A stretch of 20,528 bases of DNA from a virus. Lineage: Duplodnaviria > Heunggongvirae > Uroviricota > Caudoviricetes. This document shows positions 1,257-19,595 of the stretch, piece after piece. Positions within the stretch are counted from its first letter, which is position 1. Every line of letters begins with the position of its first letter. Both the position numbers and the translations under genes were made by a program. The stretch lies in IMG/VR virus record IMGVR_UViG_2778261537_000015, positions 1-20,528 of that record; one strand, 5' to 3'. The notes below the pieces were generated by a model. It was not told where the DNA came from. It did no database searches and saw only the letters and a program-made list of their open reading frames with translations.

Positions 1257-1300
1257 TTTTCCGGTTGTTGTCGATATCTCCCTATCCCTCAACCGGAAAA
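1257..1300 (+). terminator. Inverted repeat just downstream of cscB (possible terminator hairpin)
   Basis: TTTTCCGGTTG (1257-1267) pairs with CAACCGGAAAA (1290-1300), an 11-bp stem starting 9 nt after the cscB stop. The loop is long (22 nt) and no clean T-run follows. Confidence 0.3.
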
Positions 1301-1688
1301 TAATAATACTAAAGTGCTTAGCCCTGCTAATAATCACCTAATCCAAACGCCTCATTCATGTTCTGGTACAGTCGCTCAAATGTACTTCAGATGCGCGGTT
1401 CGCTGATTTCCAGGACATTGTCGTCATTCAGCGACCTGTCCCGTGTATCACGGTCCTGCGAATTCATCAAGGAATGCATTGCGGAGTGAAGTATCGAGTC
1501 ACGCCATATTTCGCTATCAGGATTCTGTGTGATGGTTACATCGCCCGGCCCAGGGCTGTTTAGTCATCAGCGCTTTCTGACAGTGCTGAGATTTCAACCT
1601 GTTGCAGTAAAAATGAGTAGATATAAGGCAAGTGTGCTGCCAAACCTATCTTTTACGGGGTGAAGGTAGATTTCGTTTGAAGGGTATC

Positions 1689-1703
1689 TGGTGTCCCCTG
1701 CAG
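1689..1703. repeat. att core copy distal to the tRNA (TGGTGTCCCCTGCAG)
   Basis: 15/15 identity with 19446-19460, the 3' end of argW. The flanks diverge immediately on the left and after the core on the right (ACATC versus GAATC). Confidence 0.85.
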
Positions 1704-1761
1704 ACATCTACTTGAGGCGGCAGGGGATTGATTGGAATGGTATTTTTTGGATGTGAAAAAT

Positions 1762-1782
1762 ATTTTACCCGCTATTTTACCC
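1762..1782. promoter_or_regulatory. Two direct ATTTTACCC repeats (candidate integrase arm-type or RDF sites) in the torI-proximal arm
   Basis: ATTTTACCC occurs at 1762-1770 and 1774-1782. The same 9-mer family is clustered four times at 19285-19329 in the other arm. Confidence 0.5.
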
Positions 1783-1977
1783 ATTGGCGCGGCTTAAGAG
1801 CTTATTTTTGAATTCACAATGGTCACGATATAACCATCTTGCTCGCCCGTGGATAACTTTGGCTTTAGGCAGGTCTCCGGACTTAATCCGGTCATAGATG
1901 AAGGTTTTACCGAAGCCAGTATCGGCCATGATGAATTTCAAATCAACCAGTGAATCAGGTTGTAGTTCGTGTTGCAT
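1777..1977 (-). CDS. torI: Excisionase / recombination directionality factor TorI (AlpA/Xis-type winged helix), 66 aa
   Basis: Protein MQHELQPDSLVDLKFIMADTGFGKTFIYDRIKSGDLPKAKVIHGRARWLYRDHCEFKNKLLSRANG matches my memory of K-12 TorI. It lies at the opposite end of the element from the integrase, as in KplE1. Confidence 0.85.
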   Translation of the reverse strand: MQHELQPDSLVDLKFIMADTGFGKTFIYDRIKSGDLPKAKVIHGRARWLYRDHCEFKNKLLSRANG

Positions 1978-1996
1978 GAGTGCTATCTCCGAATAG

Positions 1997-2012
1997 GGAA
2001 TCGAACCTGCAA
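1997..2012. repeat. Second tRNA-derived fragment (GGAATCGAACCTGCAA)
   Basis: 16/16 identity with argW positions 19460-19475, the T-arm segment that continues directly from the att core. It lies in the torI upstream region. Confidence 0.5.
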
Positions 2013-2034
2013 ATCAGGCAATAAAAAACCGCCA

Positions 2035-2202
2035 TCAGGCGTTTTTGTGTTCTTTCAGTTCTTCAATTCGAATATTGGTTACGTCTGCATGTGCTATCTG
2101 CGCCCATATCATCCAGTGGTTATAGCAGTCGTTGATGTCCTCTGCTTCGATAACTCTGTTGAATGGTTCTCCATTCCATTCACCTGTGACTCGGAAGTGC
2201 AT
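2035..2202 (-). CDS. Hypothetical small phage protein, 55 aa (below the ORF-track cutoff)
   Basis: Manual translation gives MHFRVTGEWNGEPFNRVIEAEDINDCYNHWMIWAQIAHADVTNIRIEELKEHKNA. ATG at 2202-2200 with GGAG 9 nt upstream. The stop TGA (2037-2035) sits in the loop of a short hairpin followed by a T-run. No family recognised. Confidence 0.5.
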   Translation of the reverse strand: MHFRVTGEWNGEPFNRVIEAEDINDCYNHWMIWAQIAHADVTNIRIEELKEHKNA

Positions 2203-2212
2203 TTATCATCTC

Positions 2213-2240
2213 CATAAAACAAAACTCGCCGTAGCGAGTT
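2213..2240 (-). terminator. Rho-independent terminator candidate (minus strand)
   Basis: AACTCGC (2223-2229) pairs with GCGAGTT (2234-2240), a 7-bp stem with a 4-nt loop. On the minus strand it is followed by TTTTGTTTT (complement of 2213-2222). Confidence 0.5.
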
Positions 2241-2242
2241 CA

Positions 2243-2273
2243 GATAAAAGAAATCCCCGCGAGTGCGAGGATT
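2243..2273 (-). terminator. Rho-independent terminator candidate after the ASCH gene (minus strand)
   Basis: An imperfect hairpin AATCCCCGCGAGTGCGAGGATT spans 2252-2273, starting 2 nt after the ASCH stop. On the minus strand it is followed by TCTTTTAT. Confidence 0.45.
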
Positions 2274-2274
2274 G

Positions 2275-2559
2275 TTATTCATTGCCGATATTTACCTTTA
2301 TCGCGAACACCTTTACCGGTTTATCGCCGAAGTGCAGATGTGTGATTGTCTTGATTTCATATCCGTCATACGGAACATCAATTCTGCGGCTGGAGTCGTC
2401 GCGCTTCGGATATCCCTTTGTGATAATCAGGCGGTCATACTCCCGGAACATAATTCGCTTATTCCAATAGTCATTACACAGGCGATACTCTTCCGTTTTC
2501 TCCCCGCGAATCATGGCATCGAAGTATTCACCTTTGACAGCAAGTTGCAGGTTAGCCAC
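2275..2559 (-). CDS. ASCH-domain-like small phage protein, 94 aa
   Basis: The N-terminal pattern LAVKGEYFDAMIRGEKTEEYRL is typical of ASCH/PUA-like beta-barrel proteins. It overlaps the upstream gene by 8 nt, suggesting operon coupling. Confidence 0.6.
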   Translation of the reverse strand: MANLQLAVKGEYFDAMIRGEKTEEYRLCNDYWNKRIMFREYDRLIITKGYPKRDDSSRRIDVPYDGYEIKTITHLHFGDKPVKVFAIKVNIGNE

Positions 2560-2836
2560 GACCTTCCTCCTTTGGCTTGTGAATTTGTATCGTCATGCCG
2601 CTTTGAGTGGTGACTACAACGACAGAACCAGGCTGAAGACTGTTAAGATTGAATGCTTCGTAAAACGAATCCAATGCCAGTGCTTTTTTATTCTTTCGGT
2701 TCAACCAACGCCATCCCCTGCTACAGGCTACACTGACAATCCACTGTCCACTCCTGTAAGCCATATAAAACCAGATGAGCAAAACCTGAAGGAAGGCCAT
2801 CCAGTCAATAATTGTATATTTTGCGAGGGAGTCCAT
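2552..2836 (-). CDS. Hypothetical small membrane protein, 94 aa
   Basis: One clear hydrophobic helix (IIDWMAFLQVLLIWFYMAY). The start overlaps the stop of the upstream gene by 1 nt (shared position 2836). No family recognised. Confidence 0.55.
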   Translation of the reverse strand: MDSLAKYTIIDWMAFLQVLLIWFYMAYRSGQWIVSVACSRGWRWLNRKNKKALALDSFYEAFNLNSLQPGSVVVVTTQSGMTIQIHKPKEEGRG

Positions 2837-3555
2837 TACTTCACCTCCTGCGGCGGTTCTGGTAGCGGCATCCAGTGAGTTGCCTGCTCAATACCATTAC
2901 CCGGCTTAATCGTTGCTTCTCCTCGCCGGAATGTGCTTCCTGTATAGCGTGCGGAGCATATTAGCGGTTCAACCAGAGAGCTATCGAAATTCACCGAAAT
3001 AAGCACGTTCTGGTTCTTTTCAGGCATCCGCTCACTACAGCTTATCCAACCATCCGGAGTTGCCGGAGAGTTGCACGATGGCTCGTTCAACTTGCAAGTT
3101 TGGCTTACAGGTTCGGCTTCCAGTTCTGCTATGCGCTTTTCTGAGGCTTCAAGTAACGCCTGCTTATCGCGTAGCGCTTCTTCCAGTTCAGCAACATGGC
3201 ATTCACTATCAATAAGGTTGTTCTCTGCTGCTTCCAGCTCAACACGCAGCTTCCCTACCGTTAGTGCAATATCCTCGTTCTCCTGGTCGCGGCGTTTGAT
3301 GTATTGCTGGTTTCTTTCCCGTTCATCCAGCAGCGCCTGCACTACTTCAGGGTTGAAAGCTGCGATATAACGAGCGTTGTTCTCTGCATTTTTCTGTCCA
3401 TCAAAGCCGGTCCATTTGATAACGTCTTCACATCGTTTATCACCGGGCGTATGCACCGCATACGTACCAGTACCCGGCGAAATAAATGCGACCCATTCGC
3501 TTTGTGTTGCCTGTTTTGCTATCTCACGCAGTGCCTGATAGTCAATCTTGCTCAC
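2836..3555 (-). CDS. Ead/Ea22-like protein fused to a DUF551-like C-terminal domain, 239 aa
   Basis: The N-terminus MSKIDYQALREIAKQATQSEW plus a central coiled coil (LRVELEAAENN...AELEEAL...RIAELEAE) resembles lambdoid Ead/Ea22 proteins. The C-terminal motif THWMPLPEPP is typical of DUF551. GTG start with AAAGGAGG upstream. Confidence 0.65.
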   Translation of the reverse strand: MSKIDYQALREIAKQATQSEWVAFISPGTGTYAVHTPGDKRCEDVIKWTGFDGQKNAENNARYIAAFNPEVVQALLDERERNQQYIKRRDQENEDIALTVGKLRVELEAAENNLIDSECHVAELEEALRDKQALLEASEKRIAELEAEPVSQTCKLNEPSCNSPATPDGWISCSERMPEKNQNVLISVNFDSSLVEPLICSARYTGSTFRRGEATIKPGNGIEQATHWMPLPEPPQEVK

Positions 3556-3734
3556 TGGTTGCCTCCTTTGCGAAGCTCTGCGGCGAACTCGTTAAGTGAT
3601 ATGTAGCAATATCCAAATGTTAACGAACCGCTCGACTGCATAACGGGGAGCAATGGCTTGTTGTTGAGCCAATAGAGTTGTGGCCTGACTGGTGCCGGCT
3701 GATTGCTGTATTGCAGGTAAGCCCATGAATGATT
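3552..3734 (-). pseudogene. 5'-truncated remnant of a leftward early gene
   Basis: A minus-strand frame is open from 3734 to a TGA at 3554-3552 that overlaps the GTG start of the next gene. The C-terminus reads ...ISLNEFAAELRKGGNQ. The only ATG would give 28 aa with no SD, and the upstream half does not look coding. Confidence 0.45.
3624..3728 (+). pseudogene. 5'-truncated remnant of a rightward late (head-tail joining region) gene
   Basis: A plus-strand frame is open only from 3624 (after TAA 3621-3623). It ends ...GEQWLVVEPIELWPDWCRLIAVLQVSP with a TGA at 3726-3728 overlapping the ATG (3725) of the first tail gene (ATGA coupling). It has no start codon of its own. Confidence 0.45.
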
Positions 3735-4240
3735 TCACTGTCGATAATATTATCGATGTACTTGCTGGCTACATAGAACCTATCGCTGGTAAATGCCTGC
3801 AGGCTCAGGCTAACCGTGTACCAATGCCCAAAGATCAGTTCTGTATCCTGACCCCTTTGCGATTCACCAGACTATCCACGACGAGAGAGCTTAAGCAAGA
3901 TACCGGCTCTCCGGACACAAGCACCATGGGATATACGGAAGTTCGCCAGGCTGATATTCAGGTAGATATCTATGGTCAGGGGGCAGGGGATAGAGCTATT
4001 GCACTGGAAACAACATTCACCAGTGGATATGGCTACGACATCATCAAGGCTATTGATGCACGGCTTGCGCCGCTTTACTCATCTCCTGCCATTCAGGCGC
4101 CGATGATCAACGCCGAGAGTCAGTGGCAGGAGCGTTACACGTTAACTCTTTCCCTGCAAGCACACATCACCGTGTCGTTCCAGCAGGACTATTTCGACAA
4201 AGCAGAAATTTCAACTGAACAGGTGGATAACCGCCCATGA
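3725..4240 (+). CDS. Tail terminator / tail completion (neck-proximal) protein-like, 171 aa
   Basis: This is the first gene of the tail block and lies directly upstream of the sheath gene, overlapping it by 4 nt. ATG 3725 is preferred over the GTG at 3692 because of the ATGA coupling with the upstream remnant. The family call rests on position and size only. Confidence 0.55.
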   Translation: MNDFTVDNIIDVLAGYIEPIAGKCLQAQANRVPMPKDQFCILTPLRFTRLSTTRELKQDTGSPDTSTMGYTEVRQADIQVDIYGQGAGDRAIALETTFTSGYGYDIIKAIDARLAPLYSSPAIQAPMINAESQWQERYTLTLSLQAHITVSFQQDYFDKAEISTEQVDNRP

Positions 4241-5727
4241 GCACAATCCCTTTATCTGTAGATTTTAATATCACGCCCAATGTCGTTACGCCTGCCGGTT
4301 CTGCGGTTGATGCTAACGGCCTGATGTTGACCGATAACGAGCTTATCCCGGTTGGCGCGGTACAATCTTATTACTCCTCATCTGATGTATCAGCTTTGAT
4401 GGGGAGTGAATCGAAAGAATTCCTCGCAGCACAACAGTATTTTAACGGATACGAAAATTCATCAGTTATTCCTGGTGAACTACTGATGTATCGTATTGTT
4501 ACTTCACCAGTGGCTGGGCATCTTCTGTCCGGCAACCTGAAAGGTGTTACCCTAGCAACACTGAAAGCTATTCCAGCAGGAACAATCACCCTTTCCATTG
4601 ACGGTGAGTCGACTACCAGCACATCAATTGATTTGTCCACAGCCACAAGTTTTAGTGATATTGCGTCCAAGTTGCAGGTTGGAATTGGTGAAAGCAAGGT
4701 GGTGGTTGAATGGTTGCCAATCGCTAACCGATTCATCATTCGCTCTGCCACTACTGGCGCAGAGAGTGAAGTGTCTTATGCCTCTGCTGGCGCTCTGGCT
4801 GCCGGGTTATTACTGACGCAGGATTCCGCAGCGATTGTATCACCGGGTTCTGATGCGGTAACGCTGACAGATACGATGAATAACATCATCAACGGCAACC
4901 AGAACTGGATCCTGTTTAACTCGCTGGTCGAACTGACCGATGACCAGAAAACAGAATTGTGCGCATGGGCAAGCAGCAGTAAAAACCGGTTTGGATATGT
5001 TGTTCACGACACCACTTCAGCAGGAACGGTAGCCAATAATGCCAATTGCTTTGTGCAGAAAGTGGTTGTGGCAAATGGCTACGAGAACATTTTTCCGGTG
5101 TACGGAACATACCTGTATAGCGTTACAGCACTGGCATATGCTGCATCCGTGGATTTTGCACGCACCAATGGGCGTATCTCGTTCAAGTTCCGTGGATTTT
5201 CAGGGTTAGCACCCAACGTAAGCGATCTGGCGACCGCTAAGGCACTGAAGTCAAACGGTTACAACTTCTACGGCTCATACAGCCTGAACAAAACAATGGC
5301 GCAGTACGCATCTGATGGTGCCATTACTGGCAAGTTTGTATGGCTGGACAGTTTTATTAATCAGGTATGGATTAATGCCAATCTGGTTAGTGCTTTTGCC
5401 AACCTGTTCACCAATAACCAGTCTTACCCGTTCAATGAGACAGGATACGGCGCAGTTTCTGCTGCTGTTATTGATGTTTCTGAACAGGCTCTCAATTTCG
5501 GGGCTATTCAGCGTGGCGTGAAACTTGATAATGCGCAAACCAGAATTGTGAATAACACAGTTGGAAAAGATATCTCATCGACGCTGTATTCACAGGGCTG
5601 GTTCCTGTACATCCCGACACAGTCAGGCTCTGCACGCATTGAGCGAGATCTGAAAGGTGTCATTTTTTATTATGTCGATGGGCAACTTATTCAGTCCATC
5701 ACGATGTCCTCAACCGCGATTTTATAA
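4237..5727 (+). CDS. Contractile tail sheath protein (DUF3383-type), 496 aa
   Basis: The N-terminus MSTIPLSVDFNITPNVVTPAGSA...LTDNELIPVGAVQSY...AAQQYFNGYENSSVIPGELL fits the DUF3383 sheath-like family as I recall it. Size and position (before the tube gene) agree. Confidence 0.75.
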   Translation: MSTIPLSVDFNITPNVVTPAGSAVDANGLMLTDNELIPVGAVQSYYSSSDVSALMGSESKEFLAAQQYFNGYENSSVIPGELLMYRIVTSPVAGHLLSGNLKGVTLATLKAIPAGTITLSIDGESTTSTSIDLSTATSFSDIASKLQVGIGESKVVVEWLPIANRFIIRSATTGAESEVSYASAGALAAGLLLTQDSAAIVSPGSDAVTLTDTMNNIINGNQNWILFNSLVELTDDQKTELCAWASSSKNRFGYVVHDTTSAGTVANNANCFVQKVVVANGYENIFPVYGTYLYSVTALAYAASVDFARTNGRISFKFRGFSGLAPNVSDLATAKALKSNGYNFYGSYSLNKTMAQYASDGAITGKFVWLDSFINQVWINANLVSAFANLFTNNQSYPFNETGYGAVSAAVIDVSEQALNFGAIQRGVKLDNAQTRIVNNTVGKDISSTLYSQGWFLYIPTQSGSARIERDLKGVIFYYVDGQLIQSITMSSTAIL

Positions 5728-5738
5728 GGGAATAAATC

Positions 5739-6173
5739 ATGCCTATCGATATTACCTCGGCAAACAGTAAGCTGCGAATCGTCGTACCCGCTTACTACCC
5801 TGGCGGTTTTGATGTTGACGACTACGCAGCTGATAACATGTTTGAAACTGGTGCGTTACAGAACAAAGAAGACATGATGTCAGCGGACGGTAAATACCAT
5901 GCTGGTTTTATCTTTAACCCGACAGAGTTCACCATCAACCTGATGCCCACATCCAATGCTGGCTCGCTGATTGATGACTGGTATGCAGCGGAGAGAACCG
6001 CAATTTCAGCGTTTCAGTGTAATGCGGTGCTTACAGTTCCGGCTCTCGGCGCGAAATGGAATTTTGTGAACGGGGTTCTTTATACATGGACTCCAACCCC
6101 TCCGGGTCGGCGCGTACTGCAACCACGCCCGGCAGTATTTCACTTTGAGTCTGTAACACGGAGCACTATCTGA
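5739..6173 (+). CDS. Tail tube protein (DUF3277-type), 144 aa
   Basis: It lies immediately after the sheath gene, has the expected size, and has AAGGGA 7 nt upstream of the ATG. The call is mainly by synteny. Confidence 0.65.
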   Translation: MPIDITSANSKLRIVVPAYYPGGFDVDDYAADNMFETGALQNKEDMMSADGKYHAGFIFNPTEFTINLMPTSNAGSLIDDWYAAERTAISAFQCNAVLTVPALGAKWNFVNGVLYTWTPTPPGRRVLQPRPAVFHFESVTRSTI

Positions 6174-6580
6174 TGGCACGTAAAGAAATCCCCTTTATCG
6201 TGGAAGACGATAATCGCGACAATGGGAAAGAGTTCATTATCACAGAGATGTCGGCATGGGATGCCGACGAACTGGCACAGGATTTATTCCGCTCCATGGG
6301 GGAATCGGGATTCTCTGGTATTCCTGCTGATGTGATTGCCATGGGGTGTGCTGGCCTTGCCACCCTTGGTCTGAATGTTCTTTCTGCCGCATCGCCGGAA
6401 GTCGCCAGAAAACTTCGTGATCGCCTGATGTCAACTGTGCAAATTGTGATTACACACGAAGGCAGCAGACAGGTGCGAACCGTGAAGCCTGTCGACTTTG
6501 AAGAGCTATCAACCATTCGTCAGGTAATGGATAAGGTATTTAAAGTCAATTTTGATTTTTTAACGATCGCCGGAGAGTGA
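6173..6580 (+). CDS. Tail assembly chaperone, short form, 135 aa
   Basis: An acidic small protein between the tube and tape measure genes. Its start overlaps the tube stop (TGATG). A -1-frame ORF follows, as in G/GT chaperone pairs. Confidence 0.7.
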   Translation: MARKEIPFIVEDDNRDNGKEFIITEMSAWDADELAQDLFRSMGESGFSGIPADVIAMGCAGLATLGLNVLSAASPEVARKLRDRLMSTVQIVITHEGSRQVRTVKPVDFEELSTIRQVMDKVFKVNFDFLTIAGE

Positions 6581-6795
6581 AGTACCCGTTCATGGAGGAG
6601 GAGACTCTTCCGGCAAAACTCGTTAGCCCCGTAAACGTCACACCATCAATGAACGCCATTATCTGTTCAGGAAAAGCCACTTATACCGATTTGCAGGAAA
6701 GGTTATCTGTTCGTGATATGTATAACCTTCTGGAAATTATCTCGGTGGAATCATTTAACAAGCGGGTCTGGAATAAACATCAGGAGCAGCGATGA
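6173..6795 (+). CDS. Tail assembly chaperone, predicted -1 frameshifted long form (G-T-like)
   Basis: The slippery heptamer T_TTT_TTA lies in the zero frame at 6556-6562. The -1 frame is open from there to the TGA at 6793-6795, which overlaps the tape measure ATG. Confidence 0.5.
6556..6562 (+). other. Candidate programmed -1 ribosomal frameshift site (T TTT TTA)
   Basis: Codons 128-130 of the chaperone are GAT TTT TTA, which gives X_XXY_YYZ in frame 19 nt before the zero-frame stop. Confidence 0.5.
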
Positions 6796-12952: not shown

Positions 12953-13826
12953 AAATCACAGTCTTCGGTTTGACTTCACGAATGAATCATCAGCATTTGA
13001 TAAAAATGGAAACAATAAAATCTCCATCAGAAATGTTAAGTCAACAGTATCCCTGAATTTTGTTACCGGTCGGGGAGGTGCTCAGGCTGATATATCTCTT
13101 TACGGGTTAGGAATTGAAAGACTTGCTGATATATCAGGGAAGGCTGATGGTATTGTTGGGGAAGGTCAGAAGTTAAATGTTGAGGTATTTGCTGATGATT
13201 CTCTTGTTTTCTCCGGCACGATGCTTTCATCAATAGCAAACATGAATTCTGCTCCTGAAAGCAGTCTGATGATAACAGCCTCTTCTAATGTTGATTTACA
13301 GAACATGCCAGCAAGCCCGTTTACAGCACAGGGTGCGCAAAGTGTTGAAGATGTCATCTCATCCATTTGTGCAAGTGCAGGTTATGAAGCTGCGTTTAAT
13401 AATGTAAAAGGGATGACAACATCAGGAAGTCCGCATTTTGAAGGAAGTGTTTTTGAGCAACTTTATAGGGTTTGTTCAGATTATGGACTGGCGATGTCAG
13501 CTACGCCACCTGCAAAAGTAGAGTTCTGGCCTTCAGAAAAAAACAGAGACGATGTAATTCCGTTTATATCCAGAGAATACGGACTTGTTGGATATCCTGT
13601 ATTTTCAAATGGGGGACTGATGTTTCAGACGCAATATTCATCTCTCCTTTGCATTGGAAGATATGTGGATATCAAAACAGAACTACCACATGCAAGCGGA
13701 AGGTATAAGTTAACCTCCGTTCGGCATGAATTATCATCATGGATGCCAAATGGTTCATGGCACTCAATATGTATTGCCGCCAGAACAGCGGAACAAAGAG
13801 CAGAGGCGCAACAGAATAATGGATAA
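12945..13826 (+). CDS. Baseplate hub protein (gpD / Mu gp44 / XkdQ-like), about 293 aa; start uncertain
   Basis: Called by position before the spike gene and by size. TTG 12945 has GAGGAA 6 nt upstream and overlaps the preceding stop by 8 nt. The alternative ATG 12870 would overlap the previous ORF by 83 nt. The ORF-track start 12837 is unlikely. Confidence 0.55.
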   Translation: MYKNHSLRFDFTNESSAFDKNGNNKISIRNVKSTVSLNFVTGRGGAQADISLYGLGIERLADISGKADGIVGEGQKLNVEVFADDSLVFSGTMLSSIANMNSAPESSLMITASSNVDLQNMPASPFTAQGAQSVEDVISSICASAGYEAAFNNVKGMTTSGSPHFEGSVFEQLYRVCSDYGLAMSATPPAKVEFWPSEKNRDDVIPFISREYGLVGYPVFSNGGLMFQTQYSSLLCIGRYVDIKTELPHASGRYKLTSVRHELSSWMPNGSWHSICIAARTAEQRAEAQQNNG

Positions 13827-14511
13827 GCAACTATTTACTCCAACGCCTGCTCAGGTAAGTGAGGCTCAATCTCAGGAATATATTTTTGAGATGCTGATGT
13901 CTGGATATTTCTTCATTGAGTTAGCGAAAGTTCAGGAAGTCAGAGGGGAAGCACCAGATTTAGTTGTTGATGTTCTTCCTTTACTAACCAGAACAGACCG
14001 TACAGGAAAAATGATTTCCAACTCGGTTTTATATGATCTTCCCGTATGGAGGTTGCAGAGAGGAAACAGTGCTGTAATTATGGACCCTGTGGCAGGTGAT
14101 ATTGGTCTGATTGCGATATGCGACAAAGACATATCACTGGTAAGAAAAAATCGTAAAGAATCAGTACCTGGAAGCAAAAGACGACACAGTAAATCGGATG
14201 CGATTTATCTTGGTGGGGTATTAAACATTTCACCTACTCAATTCATTGAATTCGCTGACGGTGCAATAAACATAACCACGCCTAACCCACTAAATATTAA
14301 ATGTTCATCGTTAAATATTGATGCTCCTGATGGAGTCAACATGAATACTCCTTTACTTAAAGTTAGCGGTGATATTCAGGATAACGCAAGTTCACAGTCA
14401 TCTACTGTTAAAAATTTAAGGGACAACTATAACAATCACAAACATTCTGTTTCAGGTGTACAAAGTGGTGGGGCAACAATAAATTCCAATGCAACGGATA
14501 AACCGACATGA
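13819..14511 (+). CDS. Baseplate central spike (gpV / gp138-type membrane-puncturing spike), 230 aa
   Basis: ATG 13819 overlaps the hub stop by 8 nt. The N-terminal region looks OB-fold-like, and the C-terminal part is a repetitive beta-helix-like segment (INITTPNPLNIKCSSLNIDAPDGVNMNTPLLKVSG). It ends with an HxH apex motif, NNHKHS (His codons at 14437-14439 and 14443-14445). Confidence 0.7.
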   Translation: MDKQLFTPTPAQVSEAQSQEYIFEMLMSGYFFIELAKVQEVRGEAPDLVVDVLPLLTRTDRTGKMISNSVLYDLPVWRLQRGNSAVIMDPVAGDIGLIAICDKDISLVRKNRKESVPGSKRRHSKSDAIYLGGVLNISPTQFIEFADGAINITTPNPLNIKCSSLNIDAPDGVNMNTPLLKVSGDIQDNASSQSSTVKNLRDNYNNHKHSVSGVQSGGATINSNATDKPT

Positions 14512-14867
14512 CATACAGAACTATGCAACTGGACACTTCTACGTGGGACTTGACGCTTGACGGAAATGGCAATCTGGCGATCGCAGAAGAATCATATTCT
14601 GTTGCTCAGGATGTCGCCAGTGCGTGCCTGGTGTTTTCTGGAGAGTGTTATTACGACAATACGCTTGGGATTCCATGGAAGGCAGAAGTTCTTGGCAGGC
14701 GACCATCTCCTGGTTTTATTGCTCAGAAAATGCAGGCTGAAGCACTAAAATTACCCGTCGTTGAGGATGCTCTGGCATCAGTTTTCTTTGACAAGAATAC
14801 ACGTACAACTCGCGGCACAATCCGCGTTACTGATATCAATGGTAATATTGCACAGGCTACCTTATGA
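14508..14867 (+). CDS. Baseplate wedge initiator (gpW/gp25 or XkdS-like), 119 aa
   Basis: The pattern TWDLTLDGNGNLAIAEESYSVAQDVASACLVFSGECYYDNTLGIPW is typical of the small protein preceding gpJ-like genes. It is ATGA-coupled on both sides. Confidence 0.6.
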   Translation: MTYRTMQLDTSTWDLTLDGNGNLAIAEESYSVAQDVASACLVFSGECYYDNTLGIPWKAEVLGRRPSPGFIAQKMQAEALKLPVVEDALASVFFDKNTRTTRGTIRVTDINGNIAQATL

Positions 14868-16093
14868 CGATATTAAATACGGCTGTTCCTGATGTAACCA
14901 TCACTGAAAACGGTCTTTCAGTTCCCGACATAGCGGATGTGCTGGCGGGAAGACTTACAGACATGTCAACGGTTCTTGGCGGTGGCGCAAGTCAGTCACT
15001 GAGTTCACCGCAAGGTCAGATCGCACAGTCTGACACTGAAATTATTGCTCAGGTATACGACAAGCTTCTTTGTTTGTTTAATCAAATAAACCCTGACTTC
15101 TCAACAGGTAGATTCCAGGACGGGATTGGCCGGATTTACTTTATGGAACGGAACGCTGCTCAGGGGACAGTTGTTACGGCAACATGCATTGGTCAGGTTG
15201 GAACAACAATACCAGCAGGGAGTACCGCTGTGGATACGAGCGGGTATATATATCAGTCAATTGACAATGCCGTAATACCCTCATCAGGCTCTGTTGATGT
15301 GCAGTTTGTCAACACAACAACCGGGCCAATTCCGTGTGCATCCGGTTCACTGAACCAGATTTATCGAGCCGTTTCCGGGTGGGATGCTGTAAATAATATT
15401 AGCCCTGGAGTCGTTGGTGTTGATGTTGAATCACGTATCGCCTTTGAAACTCGCCGGAGACAATCAGTTGCCAGAAACAGTCGAAATCAGGACGCATCTA
15501 CATTAGCAGCGTTACTTGCGACTGATGGTGTGCTTGATGCTTACGTATGGTCAAACAGAACTGCAGAAACAGTAAATAAAGGAACAACGAATTTCCCGAT
15601 TCTTGCGCATTCTGTTTATATTTGTGTTTATGGCGGGGCTGATACGGATGTTGCTGAGTCAATATTCAATACTTATAACCCCGGTGCCAATATGAATGGT
15701 GATACAACGTTCACTGTTTACGATAACGTTAATTACATGCCGCCATATCCATCTTACGTTATGCAATGGCAAAAGGCATCACCTACGCGGGTTTACTTTA
15801 AGGTAAATATCGATGCCTCACTAAATCCACCAAGTGATATAACTAAGCAAGTAAAGAAAATGGTTGCTACTGTATTCAATGGAGGGTATGAGGGTATTGG
15901 GAAGGCGCGAATTGGTTCTACGATAAATGCTGGTAAATACTATGCCCCTGTTATTTCAATATCTCCTGATACAGTTGGCATTTTGTCTCTTGAAATTTCT
16001 CTCGATGGTTCACTATACGGACCTGCTGTGACTATGGGCATAGACCAGGTTCCAACCATTCAGGAATCAGATATTACTGTTACATTGTCGTAG
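14864..16093 (+). CDS. Baseplate J / gp47-like wedge protein, 409 aa
   Basis: Size, position, and the N-terminal pattern (LPDIADVLAGRLTDM..., SSPQGQIAQSDTEIIAQVYDKL) fit Baseplate_J family members. Confidence 0.7.
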   Translation: MTILNTAVPDVTITENGLSVPDIADVLAGRLTDMSTVLGGGASQSLSSPQGQIAQSDTEIIAQVYDKLLCLFNQINPDFSTGRFQDGIGRIYFMERNAAQGTVVTATCIGQVGTTIPAGSTAVDTSGYIYQSIDNAVIPSSGSVDVQFVNTTTGPIPCASGSLNQIYRAVSGWDAVNNISPGVVGVDVESRIAFETRRRQSVARNSRNQDASTLAALLATDGVLDAYVWSNRTAETVNKGTTNFPILAHSVYICVYGGADTDVAESIFNTYNPGANMNGDTTFTVYDNVNYMPPYPSYVMQWQKASPTRVYFKVNIDASLNPPSDITKQVKKMVATVFNGGYEGIGKARIGSTINAGKYYAPVISISPDTVGILSLEISLDGSLYGPAVTMGIDQVPTIQESDITVTLS

Positions 16094-16103
16094 GGGGAGC
16101 GGT

Positions 16104-16742
16104 ATGTGGGAAGACACAATTCTTACCCAGTACTCTGCAAGCAAAAAATTACTATCCATCATTGATACCTTTAATCAGGCAATTAGCCTTGATGATTTCA
16201 CTGATGAGTTTATTAAAAAAATATGGGATTTGACCACCTGTGAGACATTCGGGTTGGACATGTGGGGTAAAATAGTTGGAATAAGCCGTTATATTAATAC
16301 TCCAATAGAAGCCAGTTCTTTCGGATTCAATGAAGCAGATGGCAAAGATCCAGATTACCCAACTCCTTTCAACGATTCACCTTTTTTTGGTGGTGTACAG
16401 GAGACAACGAATGTCAGGTTGAGTGATGATGCTTACAGAACTCTCATATTTTGCAAAGCATTCACAAATATAAGTATTGCCACGATCCCTGAAATAAACA
16501 GATTTCTAAAAATATTGTTTTATCAAAGAGGGAGAGCATATTGCGTAAATTATCGAGATATGACAATAGGAATAACGTTTGAATTTGAGCTTGCGACATA
16601 CGAAGAATCGATTCTCACGAATTATGAGGTGATGCCCGTCCCGAGTGGTGTTCTGGTAAATATACGTAAAATCATTTCCCCTTATTTTGGTTTTTCATCT
16701 GATGCCTATCCGTTTAATGATGGCACATTTTATAGGAATTAA
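16104..16742 (+). CDS. Baseplate wedge / fibre-attachment protein (DUF2612, gpI-like), 212 aa
   Basis: It lies between the J-like and tail fibre genes, with GGGGGAG upstream. The N-terminus ILTQYSASKKLLSIIDTFNQAISLDDF...IWDLTTCETFGLDMWGKIVGISR fits DUF2612 as I recall it. Confidence 0.6.
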   Translation: MWEDTILTQYSASKKLLSIIDTFNQAISLDDFTDEFIKKIWDLTTCETFGLDMWGKIVGISRYINTPIEASSFGFNEADGKDPDYPTPFNDSPFFGGVQETTNVRLSDDAYRTLIFCKAFTNISIATIPEINRFLKILFYQRGRAYCVNYRDMTIGITFEFELATYEESILTNYEVMPVPSGVLVNIRKIISPYFGFSSDAYPFNDGTFYRN

Positions 16743-16744
16743 GC

Positions 16745-17608
16745 ATGAATCGTTCTGACTCACCTAAAAAACAACCTAAGCCATTTGGAGTTAATGGACA
16801 GAGAGGGGTAATATTGCCAACCACCCCTGCAGGTGATAACTCAGCATCGTATGAACAGGGGTTTCCTCCAATAACAATGATCCTGAAATCTGCTGGCGGT
16901 TTGCCGCCAAAAGGCCAGGATATGAACCAAATTTTATACGAACTTTCGGCTCTTGGTAGATGGTCGAGCACAGGGGCGCTGAATACTTTTGATTCTGAAT
17001 TTGCTTCGGAGATTTCTGGATATCCGTCAGGGGCGATGCTCATCTCGGACGATGGGGAAAGAATATTCATTAACACAACAGAAGGAAATCTATCTGATCC
17101 AAACAGCAATGGTGCCGGGTGGAAAGATGTTCTTTCATACCTTGGTTTGGGAGAAACGATAAATAAAGCCTCCGGAGCTATGCAGAAATCGGCTAATGGA
17201 GCTGATATTTCTGATGTATCAGCCTTCCGAAATGCGCTCCAGTTAGGGACCGCTGCAACACGAGATGTTGGTGCCGGGTTAATTAATGGCATTCCGGACA
17301 TGTCCTCATTCCGTGGTTCATTAGCCGGAACTGGTTACATTAAAATCCCCATTATCGGTGCCGGAGGCGGTGCGCAAACCATTGTCATTCAGTGGGGAGT
17401 GCATTCAACTCCCCCTGGCAGTAATGCTGCCTACAATCTGGCTGTAGCATTTCCTAACTCGATACTCTGGGCTACCGGGGGACGCGGTGCCCCTGGGTCA
17501 AATGCATCGATGAATGTCGGTCCAGAAGGGACTCAACAAATTAGAATTCAGAACTATGCACCCAGCGGCCCTAATGAAAACTGCTTCTGGATTGCGATTG
17601 GTTATTGA
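16745..17608 (+). CDS. Tail fibre protein, 287 aa
   Basis: The conserved fibre N-terminus ASYEQGFPPITMILKSAGGLPPKGQDMNQILYELS is present. The C-terminal receptor-binding-like domain ends IQWG...AFPNS...FWIAIGY (gp53-like C-terminal pattern). A Tfa chaperone gene follows. Confidence 0.8.
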   Translation: MNRSDSPKKQPKPFGVNGQRGVILPTTPAGDNSASYEQGFPPITMILKSAGGLPPKGQDMNQILYELSALGRWSSTGALNTFDSEFASEISGYPSGAMLISDDGERIFINTTEGNLSDPNSNGAGWKDVLSYLGLGETINKASGAMQKSANGADISDVSAFRNALQLGTAATRDVGAGLINGIPDMSSFRGSLAGTGYIKIPIIGAGGGAQTIVIQWGVHSTPPGSNAAYNLAVAFPNSILWATGGRGAPGSNASMNVGPEGTQQIRIQNYAPSGPNENCFWIAIGY

Positions 17609-17619
17609 GGGGGATAAAG

Positions 17620-18039
17620 ATGAAAAATGTTTATAAGTTTCATGATGGCTTATTTTACCCACCGGACCTGAATTATGAGTCTATTCCAGATAGTGCGATA
17701 GAAGTATCGAGCGAGGAGTATATAAAAGCCATGAGCCGCGCACCTGGAAGCACTTTTACGGTCAATGATGCTGGTGTTGTCACTATTATCCCGGCACCAG
17801 AGCCTACGCAGGAGCAACGTATCGCTCAGGCTGAGGTGCATAAACAATTCTTGCTGGATGAAGCTACGCAAAGGATTACTATCTGGCAAACCAAGCTTCT
17901 CATGGGGCGTAAGTTAACGGATGATGAATCAGCCAGCCTTAATGCCTGGATGGACTATATTGACGAAGTAGCGAAGACTAAAGCCGTCACTGCACCCGAT
18001 ATCGTCTGGCCTACGCCTCCGGGGGAGCAGGCCAATTGA
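17620..18039 (+). CDS. Tail fibre assembly chaperone (Tfa family), 139 aa
   Basis: ATG 17620 with GAGGGGGA upstream. The pattern EQRIAQAEVHKQFLLDEATQRITIWQTKLLMGRKLTDDESASLNAWMDYIDEV is the classic Tfa C-terminal half. Confidence 0.8.
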   Translation: MKNVYKFHDGLFYPPDLNYESIPDSAIEVSSEEYIKAMSRAPGSTFTVNDAGVVTIIPAPEPTQEQRIAQAEVHKQFLLDEATQRITIWQTKLLMGRKLTDDESASLNAWMDYIDEVAKTKAVTAPDIVWPTPPGEQAN

Positions 18040-18126
18040 TATCCGGCGCACAGGACAAAACTGATACACACAAAGCTTTGCACTGGATTGCAAGGCTTTG
18101 TGCTATTCGATAGTTGTTAAGGTGGA

Positions 18127-19284
18127 TCACTCCACCTTTTCATCAAGCCAATCCGCCCACCACTGCATCATTTCTCTGCGCTTATCTAGATACTGAGCAT
18201 GGTTGTAAATCCCACGCACAGATCCGCCGTTGGCATGTGCCAGTTGCACTTCAATGGCGTCGGCAGGCCATTCGTGCTCGTTCATAATCGTGCTGAATTC
18301 ATGCCTGAATCCGTGACCGCTTTCCAGCCCCTCATAGCCGATTTGTTTGATCACAAGTAGCACCGCGTTCTCGCAGATTGGTTTCTTCTTATCGTTGCGC
18401 CCGGCAAAAACAAATTCTGATACTGGTTTAGTGATGGAGCTTAGCGTAGTGAGAAGTTCAACCACCTGGTCTGACATCGGGACCACATGAATTTTGCGTC
18501 CCTTCATCACACTGGCGTCGATGGTGATAATCCTGTTTTCAAAATCGACGTTCTTCCATAGCATGGAGCGAAGCTCTTTCGTTCTTAGGGCTGTGTAGCG
18601 TAAAACTTTGGTCGCAATGAGCGATACGATACTTCCTGAAAATGTTGCCAGTGCTTTGTTGAATGCAGGGATCTGGTCTGCTGGAAGAAACGGGAAGTTC
18701 TTCTTGCGGTATCCTTTCATGGCGTCTGCAAGGTCAGGTGCCGGGTTATATTTAGCCCTGCCGGTGACAATAGCGTAACGGAAAACCTCGCCGCATCTTC
18801 TGCGGGCTTTGTTGGCTCGCTCCATTGCACCGCGGTCTTCAAATCTGCGGATTACTTCCTGCAGTTGCATCGGCTCAATATCCTGAATTTCAAGGCTGCC
18901 GATGATAGGTAAAATGTCTTCATCAAACATTTTTGCAAGTTCATTTGCATAGCCTACTGACCAGACTTGCTTCTTGTGCTCGTACCATTCCTTGTAAATC
19001 GCACTAAAGGAATTGTTGTTAGACGAAGCCTTTTTCGCCTTTACCGGATCGATGCCAACCGAGATGTCTTTCCTCGCAGTCCATGCTTTATCCCTTGCCT
19101 CCTGCAAAGTCATAAGCGGATATTTTCCGACGGTCAGGATTTTCTCCTTACCGCCAATCTTGTAGCGAAGCTGCCATACCTTTTTCCCTGACACAGGGAC
19201 ATAAAGGTACAGGCCATTACCATCGAGAAGGCGGTATGGTTTTTCTTTCGGCTTTGCTGCTTCAATCTGCTTAACGGTGAGCAT
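18127..19284 (-). CDS. intS: Tyrosine recombinase / prophage integrase IntS, 385 aa
   Basis: From MLTVKQIEAAKPKEKPYRLLDGNGLYLYVPVSGKKVWQLRYK to ...HGFRHEFSTIMNE...LAHANGGSVRGIYNHAQYL it matches my memory of K-12 IntS. The catalytic R..HxxR..Y pattern is present, and it is adjacent to argW. ATG 19284 is preferred over the upstream ATG 19320, which gives a 12-codon extension. Confidence 0.9.
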   Translation of the reverse strand: MLTVKQIEAAKPKEKPYRLLDGNGLYLYVPVSGKKVWQLRYKIGGKEKILTVGKYPLMTLQEARDKAWTARKDISVGIDPVKAKKASSNNNSFSAIYKEWYEHKKQVWSVGYANELAKMFDEDILPIIGSLEIQDIEPMQLQEVIRRFEDRGAMERANKARRRCGEVFRYAIVTGRAKYNPAPDLADAMKGYRKKNFPFLPADQIPAFNKALATFSGSIVSLIATKVLRYTALRTKELRSMLWKNVDFENRIITIDASVMKGRKIHVVPMSDQVVELLTTLSSITKPVSEFVFAGRNDKKKPICENAVLLVIKQIGYEGLESGHGFRHEFSTIMNEHEWPADAIEVQLAHANGGSVRGIYNHAQYLDKRREMMQWWADWLDEKVE

Positions 19285-19329
19285 GGGTAAAAATCCGATG
19301 GGTAAAATTATTTTACCCACTTTTTACCC
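19285..19329. promoter_or_regulatory. Cluster of four (A/T)TTTTACCC repeats at the intS 5' end (candidate arm-type or RDF sites and intS operator)
   Basis: GGGTAAAAA at 19285-19293, GGGTAAAAT at 19300-19308, ATTTTACCC at 19310-19318, and TTTTTACCC at 19321-19329. Positions 19300-19318 form a perfect 9+1+9 palindrome. The first copy abuts the intS ATG. Confidence 0.55.
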
Positions 19330-19445
19330 GTCATGGAGTGCGGCTGTCAACGATCTGACGCGAACCATTACGAACTGTGAATCTACGGAAGGCTTGATAT
19401 TCAGGGGATTTTGCGGACTGCTACGGATGGGAGCGAACTGATAAA

Positions 19446-19460
19446 TGGTGTCCCCTGCAG
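19446..19460. repeat. att core copy within argW (TGGTGTCCCCTGCAG)
   Basis: Identical to 1689-1703. It corresponds to the acceptor 3' strand plus CCA of the tRNA. Confidence 0.85.
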
Positions 19461-19520
19461 GAATCGAACCTGCAATTAGCCCTTAGGAGGGGCTCGTTAT
19501 ATCCATTTAACTAAGAGGAC
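19446..19520 (-). tRNA. argW: tRNA-Arg (anticodon CCU), 75 nt
   Basis: The reverse complement is GTCCTCTTAGTTAAATGGATATAACGAGCCCCTCCTAAGGGCTAATTGCAGGTTCGATTCCTGCAGGGGACACCA. It folds as a cloverleaf with acceptor GTCCTCT/AGGGGAC, anticodon loop CTCCTAA, T-arm TGCAGG-TTCGATT-CCTGCA, and an encoded CCA. Confidence 0.95.
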
Positions 19521-19595
19521 AATGCGGCATGAGTATACCCGCTAATGGACTGCGGGGTAAGTACGCTGCCGCTCGATTGCTTAAACCCTCGCCAT

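What the first reader, a model, noticed from the sequence alone, without database searches (positions are those of the whole stretch)
1689..19460. KplE1/CPS-53-type recombination module at argW carrying a cargo unlike the K-12 copy
Seen: the 15-bp direct repeat TGGTGTCCCCTGCAG lies at 1689-1703 and at 19446-19460, and the right copy is the 3' end (including CCA) of tRNA-Arg(CCU). An IntS-like integrase abuts the tRNA, and the 66-aa TorI excisionase sits just inside the opposite repeat. cscB and yfdC lie outside. Established: KplE1/CPS-53 of K-12 integrates at argW and has this unusual split layout, with int and RDF at opposite ends. From memory, the K-12 copy carries gtr-like yfdGHI, tfaS and yfdK-yfdT. 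This copy instead carries a full contractile-tail module and a P22 immI-like cassette. The same int/RDF/att module is therefore associated with very different cargo, and may represent a less decayed ancestor of KplE1.
Basis: partly seen in the sequence, partly recalled or inferred. Interest (0 to 1): 0.5.

Follow-up and report, generated by a model that had tools for sequence, protein, structure and literature searches.

The report
Deleted prophage remnant at argW
This is a 17.8-kb leftover of a lambda-like phage with a contractile tail, sitting in the E. coli argW tRNA gene and bounded by the already well-studied IntS/TorI (KplE1-type) integration machinery; it is an ordinary decayed prophage and not an ancestor of the K-12 copy.

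Summary
The 15-mer TGGTGTCCCCTGCAG occurs only at 1689-1703 and 19446-19460. The right copy is the 3' end of tRNA-Arg(CCU). IntS is 380/385 identical to K-12 IntS, and TorI is 66/66 identical.

The predicted empty site, with one 15-mer, is found as a single piece at 100% identity in E. coli genomes. It is covered at 80% or more in 1414 of 5426 genomes. The predicted attP aligns as one piece (96-98%) with Sf6 and HK620 virion DNA.

The cargo is the left and right ends of a roughly 46-kb lambdoid-early, contractile-tail-late prophage. A full-length relative (46,485 bp) sits at the same cscB-argW site in strain TW10590. In the window, a clean internal deletion with its junction at 3641/3642 removed immunity, replication, nin, Q, lysis, packaging and head genes. 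In relatives that interval is about 29 kb. All tail genes are intact, and the immI-like island is a feature of the whole family.

This junction is found in none of the 5426 complete genomes. A 36-mer spanning it is also absent from the two contig collections scanned.

That the IntS/TorI module travels with different cargo is published (Panis and Ansaldi). The "ancestor of KplE1" idea fails. The interiors share no DNA, and KplE1's fibre fragment matches a different tail type.

Verdict: a new member of a known kind, of low interest.

The parts
1689..1703 (.). Core repeat on the torI side (attR in K-12 nomenclature), the left boundary of the element
   Evidence: Exact 15-mer. K-12 homology ends at its outer edge. 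The empty-site reconstruction is found at 100% identity.
1704..2027 (-). torI-side half of the conserved recombination module, comprising the att arm and torI (1777-1977, 66 aa)
   Evidence: 96.5% nt identity to K-12 over 1689-2027. TorI is 66/66 identical. This half is contiguous with the int side in Sf6 and HK620 attP.
2035..3555 (-). Four lambdoid early-left ('ea') accessory genes: 55 aa (phrog_676), 94 aa (phrog_625, annotated ASCH in relatives), DUF4752 (2552-2836), and Ead/Ea22+DUF551 (2836-3555)
   Evidence: Pfam and PHROGs. 94-95% nt identity to the torI-proximal genes of other argW prophages.
3556..3642 (-). Truncated 3' end of the next early-left gene (an ead/Ea22-like neighbour), ending at the deletion junction
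   Evidence: 99% identity over window 3545-3642 to intact prophages, where this sequence continues into a full gene.
3641..3728 (+). Truncated 3' end (about 28 codons) of the neck gene that precedes the tail terminator. The deletion junction is at 3641/3642, with at most 2 bp of overlap between the two parental homologies.
   Evidence: Homology to full-length prophages begins at 3641, inside the gene at L001:15711-16088. No genome among 5426 carries this junction. The junction 36-mer is absent from the metagenome and GTDB contig collections.
3725..8567 (+). Tail shaft genes: neck/tail terminator, DUF3383 sheath (4237-5727), tube (5739-6173), tail assembly chaperone (6173-6580, followed by a 72-aa ORF of unknown function at 6577-6795), and tape measure with lytic transglycosylase (6792-8567)
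   Evidence: Pfam and PHROGs. All are full length and 98.5-100% aa identical to those of full-length prophages. The nearest isolated phages are Edwardsiella GF-2 and Edno5, with 73-75% aa identity in the sheath.
8576..11759 (.). Accessory, immI-like island inside the tail operon: a 152-aa signal-peptide protein (-), a P63C-domain protein (+), an Mnt-like Arc-fold repressor (10227-10571, -), an Arc-like repressor (10655-10828, +) and an Ant antirepressor (about 10818-11759, +)
   Evidence: Pfam Arc 1.8e-20, P22_AR_N 3.8e-40, P63C 7.8e-14. Arc-like PHROG. Divergent promoter-like sites in the mnt-arc spacer and terminator-like hairpins after P63C and ant. The same island position is seen in L001, L002, L007 and L009.
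11838..18039 (+). Baseplate and fibre genes: Dit-like hub, Pam3-gp18-like plug, baseplate hub, gpV-like spike, wedge subunit, Baseplate J, DUF2612, tail fibre (16745-17608) and fibre assembly protein (17605-18039)
   Evidence: Pfam and PHROGs. Proteins from the Dit-like hub to Baseplate J are full length and 97-100% identical to relatives; DUF2612 is full length at 87%. This module is present in only 21 of 5426 genomes. From 17139 onward the sequence is 98-99.7% identical to a prophage with a different tail type in strain R18.
18054..19445 (-). int-side half of the recombination module, comprising intS (18127-19284, 385 aa) and the att arm that carries the intS promoter and the IntS and TorI binding sites (19285-19445)
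   Evidence: 97.1% nt identity to K-12 from 18054 onward. IntS is 380/385 identical. The five TorI pentamers (GTTCG, GATCG, GTCCG) and the TAAA arm motifs described in PMC2951348 fall in invariant alignment columns.
19446..19520 (-). argW tRNA-Arg(CCU). Its last 15 nt (19446-19460) are the int-side core repeat (attL in K-12 nomenclature).
   Evidence: ARAGORN and Rfam at 63.4 bits.

Best explanation
The interval 1689-19460 (17,772 bp) is a cryptic prophage remnant. A temperate phage integrated into the 3' end of argW, next to the csc sucrose genes. It had lambdoid early genes, a PB1/E217-class (DUF3383 sheath) contractile tail, and the KplE1-type int-attP-xis module. IntS recombined the 15-nt core shared by attP and the tRNA end. 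Because attP lies between intS and torI, integration placed the two genes at opposite ends of the prophage.

Later a single illegitimate deletion removed the interval from an early-left gene to the neck gene in front of the tail terminator. In relatives that interval is about 29 kb. Its junction is at 3641/3642, where the two parental homologies overlap by at most 2 bp. The deletion took out the CI/Cro immunity region, replication, nin, Q, lysis, terminase, portal and head genes.

What remains is the two att sites, intS, torI, four small early-left genes and an intact tail operon with its embedded mnt/arc/ant island. The tail operon has lost its late promoter and antiterminator.

Shown here: the boundaries, the orthology, the empty site, the attP continuity, the deletion and the integrity of the remaining ORFs. 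Inferred: like K-12 KplE1, the element should still excise if TorI is supplied, because it has intact IntS, identical TorI and conserved binding sites. Also inferred: it cannot replicate, lyse the cell or form virions, and its tail genes are probably silent or at best weakly transcribed.
For: The core repeat is non-random and the tRNA is confirmed. IntS is 99% and TorI 100% identical to K-12. The module boundaries are 1689-2027 and 18054-19460. K-12 homology stops at the 15-mer. The reconstructed attB is found at 100% identity and 100% coverage in one piece, and is covered at 80% or more in 1414 of 5426 genomes. The reconstructed attB-complement, attP, aligns in one piece at 96.4-97.6% identity to Sf6, HK620, IME10, HK633, N7 and others, and HK620 annotates attP at that position. 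A full-length 46,485-bp relative sits at the same cscB/argW site in TW10590, with an identical late-gene order including the immI island. Other full-length relatives were found at other sites. Left-parent homology runs to 3642 and right-parent homology starts at 3641. In L007 the two breakpoints lie about 28.9 kb apart and enclose the immunity, replication, nin, Q, lysis, terminase and head genes. No head, lysis, replication or repressor domains were found in the window. No promoter-like site lies upstream of the tail terminator on the + strand. Literature: KplE1 excises in vivo with IntS and TorI, and the module is conserved in other phages (PMC2951348, PMC3509656).
Against: No experiment was possible, so excision competence and silence of the tail genes are inferences. 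All 15 tail-module genes, from tail terminator to fibre-assembly protein, are intact. That could reflect selection rather than a recent deletion. The exact parent is not in the collections: the left and right parts match different relatives best, as expected for mosaic lambdoids. The size of the deletion is therefore estimated from relatives (about 26-29 kb).
Confidence: 0.9

Rival explanations
1. The element is a domesticated, tail-only element, a tailocin-like particle gene cluster. Selection keeps the complete contractile-tail operon, and the cluster remains mobile through IntS/TorI.
For: Every gene from the tail terminator to the fibre-assembly protein is full length. From the terminator to Baseplate J they are 97-100% identical to those of intact prophages. 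The deletion removed the head genes very precisely up to the tail terminator. Promoter-like sites in the immI island could drive ant and the downstream baseplate genes.
Against: There is no lysis cassette, no regulator (Q or CI) and no promoter-like site ahead of the operon. Terminator-like hairpins follow P63C and ant. The junction is unique among 5426 genomes and absent from the other collections, so there is no sign of spread or independent recurrence. The other family members examined are full-length prophages. A recent deletion explains the intact ORFs equally well.
Confidence: 0.05
2. One reading: this is a less decayed version, or ancestor, of the K-12 KplE1/CPS-53 prophage.
For: The attachment site and the int/RDF/att module are the same at 96-100% identity. 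The element is larger than KplE1 (17.8 kb against 10.2 kb). Both have a fibre-assembly gene near int, with weak similarity of 35-48% aa. A relative at attλ carries gtrAB about 81% identical to yfdGH beside its fibre genes.
Against: blastn and tblastx find nothing shared between the two interiors apart from that weak fibre-assembly match. The 5' part of KplE1 yfdL is 94.7% identical to the fibre N-terminus of the Mu-type-tail, HK97-head prophage at argW in R18. That is a different tail type from the DUF3383 tail here. The module is known to be exchanged among unrelated phages (PMC2951348).
Confidence: 0.03
3. The 3641/3642 junction is an assembly artefact, and the real locus holds a full-length prophage.
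For: No other genome or contig collection contains the junction.
Against: At most 2 bp of sequence are shared at the junction, so there is no repeat that would mislead an assembler. Analogous internal-deletion remnants exist at the same site in finished genomes, namely Survcare253 and K-12 itself.
Confidence: 0.02

Closest known systems
KplE1 / CPS-53 cryptic prophage of E. coli K-12 (IntS/TorI module; Panis, Mejean and Ansaldi 2007; PMC2951348)
   Same: Same attB (3' end of argW) and the same core sequence. IntS is 380/385 and TorI 66/66 identical. The att arms are 96-97% identical, with the TorI pentamers and IntS arm motifs conserved. int and RDF lie at opposite ends. Both are repressor-less remnants made by internal deletion.
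   Different: The interior cargo is non-homologous. K-12 carries gtrABS-like yfdGHI, fibre fragments and yfdM-T. Here there are ea-type early genes plus a complete DUF3383-type tail operon with an immI island. The outer flank is csc rather than dsdC, which makes the repeat 15 nt instead of 16.
P22-like podoviruses Sf6, HK620, CUS-3, IME10, HK633 and Kapi1 (same int-attP-xis module)
   Same: The reconstructed attP with the int and torI ends aligns in one piece at 96-98% nt identity. The torI-proximal ea genes are related. The mnt/arc/ant immI logic inside the late operon resembles P22.
   Different: Those phages have short P22-type tails and P22-type heads. This element has a contractile tail and no head genes at all.
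Full-length lambdoid-early, DUF3383-myovirus-late prophages of E. coli (TW10590 at argW; WS4437A-1, IGC_RcoliRes_1.1 and FDAARGOS_1288 elsewhere). Nearest isolated phages: Edwardsiella GF-2 and Edno5.
   Same: The late-gene order is the same from the tail terminator to the fibre, with 87-100% aa identity, including the accessory/immI island between the tape measure and the baseplate. TW10590 uses the same IntS/TorI module at the same cscB-argW site.
   Different: Those prophages are about 46 kb, with immunity, replication, nin, Q, lysis, terminase and head genes. The window lacks that whole interval, which is about 29 kb in relatives. The fibre C-terminus, the fibre-assembly protein and the ant allele also differ.
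R-type tailocins (for example R-pyocins)
   Same: A contractile-tail gene set without head or packaging genes.
   Different: Tailocin loci carry their own regulators and a lysis cassette and are fixed in lineages. This locus has neither, has truncated genes at the junction, and is a singleton.

Membership tests
KplE1/CPS-53-type (IntS/TorI) recombination module | Integration into the 3' end of argW, with duplication of the core CTGCAGGGGACACCA(T) | tested here: met
   An exact 15-nt duplication, one copy being the tRNA 3' end. The empty site with a single copy is found at 100% identity.
KplE1/CPS-53-type (IntS/TorI) recombination module | IntS-orthologous heterobivalent tyrosine integrase | tested here: met
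   380/385 identity to K-12 IntS. Arm-binding, central and catalytic Pfam domains are all present. All five substitutions lie N-terminal to the catalytic domain.
KplE1/CPS-53-type (IntS/TorI) recombination module | TorI-orthologous recombination directionality factor | tested here: met
   66/66 identity.
KplE1/CPS-53-type (IntS/TorI) recombination module | int-attP-xis order, so that int and RDF end up at opposite prophage ends and the intS promoter overlaps attL | tested here: met
   The layout is seen directly in the window. The reconstructed attP is colinear with Sf6 and HK620. The attL and promoter region is 97% identical to K-12.
KplE1/CPS-53-type (IntS/TorI) recombination module | Conserved TorI sites (GTTCG, GATCG, GTCCG) and IntS arm-type sites (TAAA-containing) in the att arms | tested here: met
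   All five attL pentamers and the GGGTAAAA-type repeats lie in invariant or motif-preserving columns of the K-12 alignment. The sites are as described in PMC2951348.
KplE1/CPS-53-type (IntS/TorI) recombination module | TorI-dependent excision in vivo | not testable with these tools
   This requires PCR for attB and attP junctions with and without TorI overexpression.
KplE1 prophage lineage (same ancestral phage as the K-12 copy) | Homologous interior genes | tested here: not met
   There are no blastn hits between the interiors, and tblastx finds only a weak fibre-assembly match. KplE1 yfdL matches the R18-type fibre instead.
P22-type immI region | A divergent mnt repressor gene, then arc and ant in one operon, embedded in the late operon | tested here: met
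   An Arc-fold 114-aa protein on the minus strand, then a 57-aa Arc-like protein and a P22_AR_N antirepressor on the plus strand, between the tape measure and the baseplate. Divergent promoter-like sites lie in the 83-bp spacer.
P22-type immI region | sar antisense RNA | tested here: not met
   At gathering threshold, Rfam finds only the tRNA in the window.
Functional (inducible, virion-forming) temperate phage | Immunity repressor, replication, lysis, terminase, portal and capsid genes | tested here: not met
   None were found by Pfam or PHROGs in any ORF of the element. They are present in full-length relatives between the two breakpoints.
R-type tailocin locus | Dedicated regulator(s) and a holin/endolysin cassette flanking a head-less tail cluster | tested here: not met
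   There is no holin, endolysin or regulator other than mnt and arc. No promoter-like site precedes the operon.

The most novel reading that the evidence does not exclude
The remnant is not just debris. It is an excisable, tail-only cassette whose complete contractile-tail operon is retained by selection. The tail could act as a tailocin, or as a tail donor to co-resident head-only or defective prophages. In addition, the surviving mnt/arc/ant switch could let a cryptic element induce other resident lambdoid prophages in trans.
Probability: 0.04. Interest if true: 0.55.

Novelty: new member of a known kind. Interest (0 to 1): 0.15.

Why it matters
The finding adds one more, well-delimited example to a known picture. 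The IntS/TorI/att module of KplE1 is a portable cassette. Among the loci examined here it is joined to at least three unrelated virion types: P22-like podoviruses, DUF3383-type myoviruses, and Mu-type-tail/HK97-head myoviruses. Prophages at argW also repeatedly decay by large internal deletions that spare both ends, as seen in this window, in Survcare253 and in K-12. The element could serve as a natural substrate for studying TorI-dependent excision without phage induction, as KplE1 does. It does not open a new question.

Tried and rejected
(1) I searched for the same deletion elsewhere. No genome among 5426 covers window 1704-4300 at 80% or more. The junction 36-mer has no exact match in the metagenome contigs or the GTDB representative contigs.

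(2) I looked for a named isolated phage with this tail. No phage record matches the tail module closely; the only DNA-level match is a 69.6% match to Vibrio phage IKEMa6-1. At protein level the best are Edwardsiella GF-2 and Edno5 at 73-75% in the sheath.

(3) I tested the KplE1-ancestor idea by blastn and tblastx of the window against K-12, and of KplE1 against all fetched prophages. It is rejected.

(4) I searched Rfam for a sar-like RNA or other RNAs. Only the tRNA was found.

(5) The promoter scan gave no more sites than shuffled sequence, so I use it only for position: none lies before the tail operon, and a divergent pair lies in the mnt-arc spacer.

(6) I considered a tandem double lysogen recombined into one element. 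I did not pursue it, because both breakpoints lie inside genes and the homologies overlap by at most 2 bp, which fits a simple illegitimate deletion.

(7) Two Python calls failed because locus files had not yet synced. I redid the work with DNA alignment.

Full report
**Observation**

The 15-mer TGGTGTCCCCTGCAG occurs exactly twice in the window, at 1689-1703 and 19446-19460, even with two mismatches allowed. Shuffled sequence gives 0.03 matches on average, and none of 100 shuffles gave two. ARAGORN and Rfam place tRNA-Arg(CCT) at 19446-19520 on the minus strand, so the right copy is the tRNA 3' end including CCA.

The ORF next to the tRNA (18127-19320, minus strand) has the arm-binding, central and catalytic integrase domains. 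It is 380/385 identical to K-12 IntS, and the alignment puts the real start at the ATG at 19284. The 66-aa ORF at 1777-1977 is 66/66 identical to K-12 TorI. A complete LacY-family permease, annotated cscB in matching genomes, lies outside one repeat and yfdC outside the other.

**Are the repeats the true boundaries?**

Three independent tests say they are.

- Aligned to K-12, the torI-side homology runs through the 15-mer and stops at its outer edge. The int-side arm is about 97% identical through the intS promoter region.
- I built the predicted empty site from window 1289-1703 joined to 19461-19860. It is found as a single piece at 100% identity and 100% coverage in many E. coli genomes, and 1414 of 5426 genomes cover at least 80% of it.
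- I built the predicted circular junction from 19146-19460 joined to 1704-2003. It aligns as one piece at 96.4-97.6% identity with the virion DNA of Sf6, HK620 (which annotates attP there), IME10, HK633, N7, HF4s and others.

The split layout, with int and RDF at opposite ends, is therefore the direct result of an int-attP-xis arrangement, as described for KplE1 (PMC2951348). The five TorI pentamers and the TAAA-containing IntS arm motifs defined in that paper lie in conserved columns.

**What the cargo is**

Reading inward from torI, there are four small minus-strand genes typical of lambdoid early-left 'ea' regions: phrog_676, phrog_625 (ASCH-like), DUF4752, and Ead/Ea22+DUF551.

The plus strand then carries, in order:
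- a tail terminator, a DUF3383 sheath, an E217-gp32-like tube, a tail assembly chaperone and a tape measure with a transglycosylase;
- an accessory island with a signal-peptide protein, a P63C protein, a divergent Mnt-like Arc-fold repressor, an Arc-like repressor and a P22_AR_N antirepressor;
- a baseplate (Dit-like hub, Pam3-gp18-like plug, hub, gpV-like spike, wedge, Baseplate J, DUF2612), a fibre and a fibre-assembly protein.

No repressor of the CI type and no replication, Q, lysis, terminase, portal or capsid gene is present.

**Origin by internal deletion**

Full-length relatives exist. Strain TW10590 carries a 46,485-bp prophage between the same 15-mers at the same cscB-argW-yfdC site. 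It has torI, early-left genes, cI/cro/cII, replication, nin, Q, lysis, terminase, head and neck genes, the same tail operon with the same island position, then intS. The same late region occurs with other integration modules or sites in WS4437A-1, IGC_RcoliRes_1.1 and FDAARGOS_1288.

All relatives begin to match the window at 3641. That position lies inside the last 28 or so codons of the neck gene that precedes the tail terminator. The sequence to the left matches the 3' end of an ead/Ea22-neighbouring early gene up to 3642. The junction is therefore a clean fusion of two gene fragments, with the two parental homologies overlapping by at most 2 bp.

In IGC_RcoliRes_1.1 the two parental points lie about 28.9 kb apart and enclose exactly the missing functions. 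From the tail terminator to the DUF2612 protein, every remaining tail protein is full length. Those from the terminator to Baseplate J are 97-100% identical to relatives, and DUF2612 is 87% identical. The fibre and the fibre-assembly protein are mosaic alleles.

The junction is found in none of the 5426 complete genomes. A 36-mer spanning it is absent from the metagenome contigs and the GTDB representative contigs. The simplest reading is a recent, lineage-specific deletion.

**Mechanism**

Shown here: the boundaries, the module orthology, the empty site and the deletion. Inferred from established KplE1 biology (PMC2951348, PMC3509656): IntS, TorI and host factors should still be able to excise the element between the two cores, because nothing in the module is damaged. 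The product would be a non-replicating circle that is lost.

The tail operon has lost the PR'/Q late transcription system, and no promoter-like site precedes it. The mnt-arc spacer contains divergent promoter-like sites. Terminator-like hairpins follow P63C and ant. At most the ant-proximal genes might therefore be transcribed.

**Comparison with what is known**

The module is a full member of the KplE1/CPS-53 type on every sequence-testable criterion. That this module is shared among phages with otherwise different genomes is published for Sf6, HK620, CUS-3 and the APEC-O1 and UTI89 prophages, and the later paper speaks of 'numerous (pro)phages'.

What this window and its relatives add is modest. 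The module also accompanies myoviral late regions, namely the DUF3383 type here and a Mu-type-tail, HK97-head type in strain R18. All isolated phages in the phage collection that carry the close (95% or higher) module are podoviruses. Two Klebsiella phage records carry a module about 79% identical, and one of them, RCIP0114, also has a DUF3383 sheath. The DUF3383 baseplate module is rare in E. coli, present in 21 of 5426 genomes. Its nearest isolated relatives are the Edwardsiella phages GF-2 and Edno5.

**The 'ancestor of KplE1' suggestion**

It is not supported. The window and KplE1 share only 1689-2027 and 18054-19460, plus the host flank. The interiors give no blastn hit, and tblastx finds only a weak fibre-assembly match. 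KplE1's fibre fragment yfdL is 94.7% identical over 244 nt to the N-terminal part of the R18-type fibre, which belongs to the other tail type. KplE1 and this element are better seen as independent decay products of different phages that used the same integration cassette.

**Verdict**

This is a real, precisely delimited and correctly observed feature. It is an ordinary cryptic prophage remnant built on a known recombination module. I rate it a new member of a known kind, with low interest (0.15). The only reading with some novelty is selective retention of a mobile, tail-only cassette or a trans-acting antirepressor. It has no positive support beyond ORF integrity, and I give it about 4%.

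Noticed in passing
L001:33545-33810 (E. coli WS4437A-1, NZ_CP035822.1): A prophage of the same myovirus family has a 98%-identical IntS but sits next to purK, with no argW nearby. Its junction reads TGGTGTCC|AATGCATGATGCG, against TGGTGTCC|CCTGCAGGAATCG in the window. This suggests integration at a secondary site, with the crossover inside the core.
   Followed up: partly
L004:3000-7500 (E. coli Survcare253, NZ_CP076305.1): A second, independent internal-deletion remnant lies at the same cscB-argW site. It is a P22-like prophage in which early-left genes (anti-RecBCD, an exonuclease fragment) are fused directly to a truncated tail-needle gene. Both the torI and intS ends are spared, the same pattern as here and in K-12.
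   Followed up: partly
window 17139-18200; L006:15001-16062 (E. coli R18): The fibre C-terminal (gp53-like) domain, the fibre-assembly gene and intS form one block that is 99.7% identical between this DUF3383-type tail and an unrelated Mu-type-tail, HK97-head prophage at argW. The receptor-binding end and the integration module therefore appear to move together across tail types.
   Followed up: partly
L005:6681-6924 (K-12 yfdL/yfdM boundary): The 5' part of KplE1's yfdL pseudogene, together with 61 nt upstream of it, is 94.7% identical to codons of about 21-100 of the R18-type fibre gene. This implies that the KplE1 deletion fused a nin-region methyltransferase fragment (yfdM) to the 5' end of a fibre gene.
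   Followed up: partly
window 8576-10211: Two accessory genes lie between the tape measure and the mnt-like gene, in the slot where, from memory, P22 carries sieA. One is a 152-aa protein with an N-terminal signal peptide and no family match. The other is a 343-aa P63C-domain protein. The content of this slot varies among relatives.
   Followed up: partly
L009:20095-24587 (E. coli FDAARGOS_1288): A family member at the bioA/ybhB (attλ) site carries fibre, fibre-assembly gene, an inverted fibre-assembly fragment, then gtrC-like, gtrB and gtrA at its end. The gtrAB genes are about 81% identical to K-12 yfdG and yfdH. An O-antigen-modification slot next to the att site recurs across these prophages: an acyltransferase in TW10590 and a GDSL esterase in WS4437A-1.
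   Followed up: no
phage records OR532908.1 and MN013086.1: Klebsiella phages RCIP0114 and vB_Kpn_Chronis carry an int-attP-xis segment 78-80% identical to the reconstructed attP region. RCIP0114 also has a DUF3383 sheath (37% aa identity). A diverged version of the module is therefore associated with this tail class outside E. coli.
   Followed up: no
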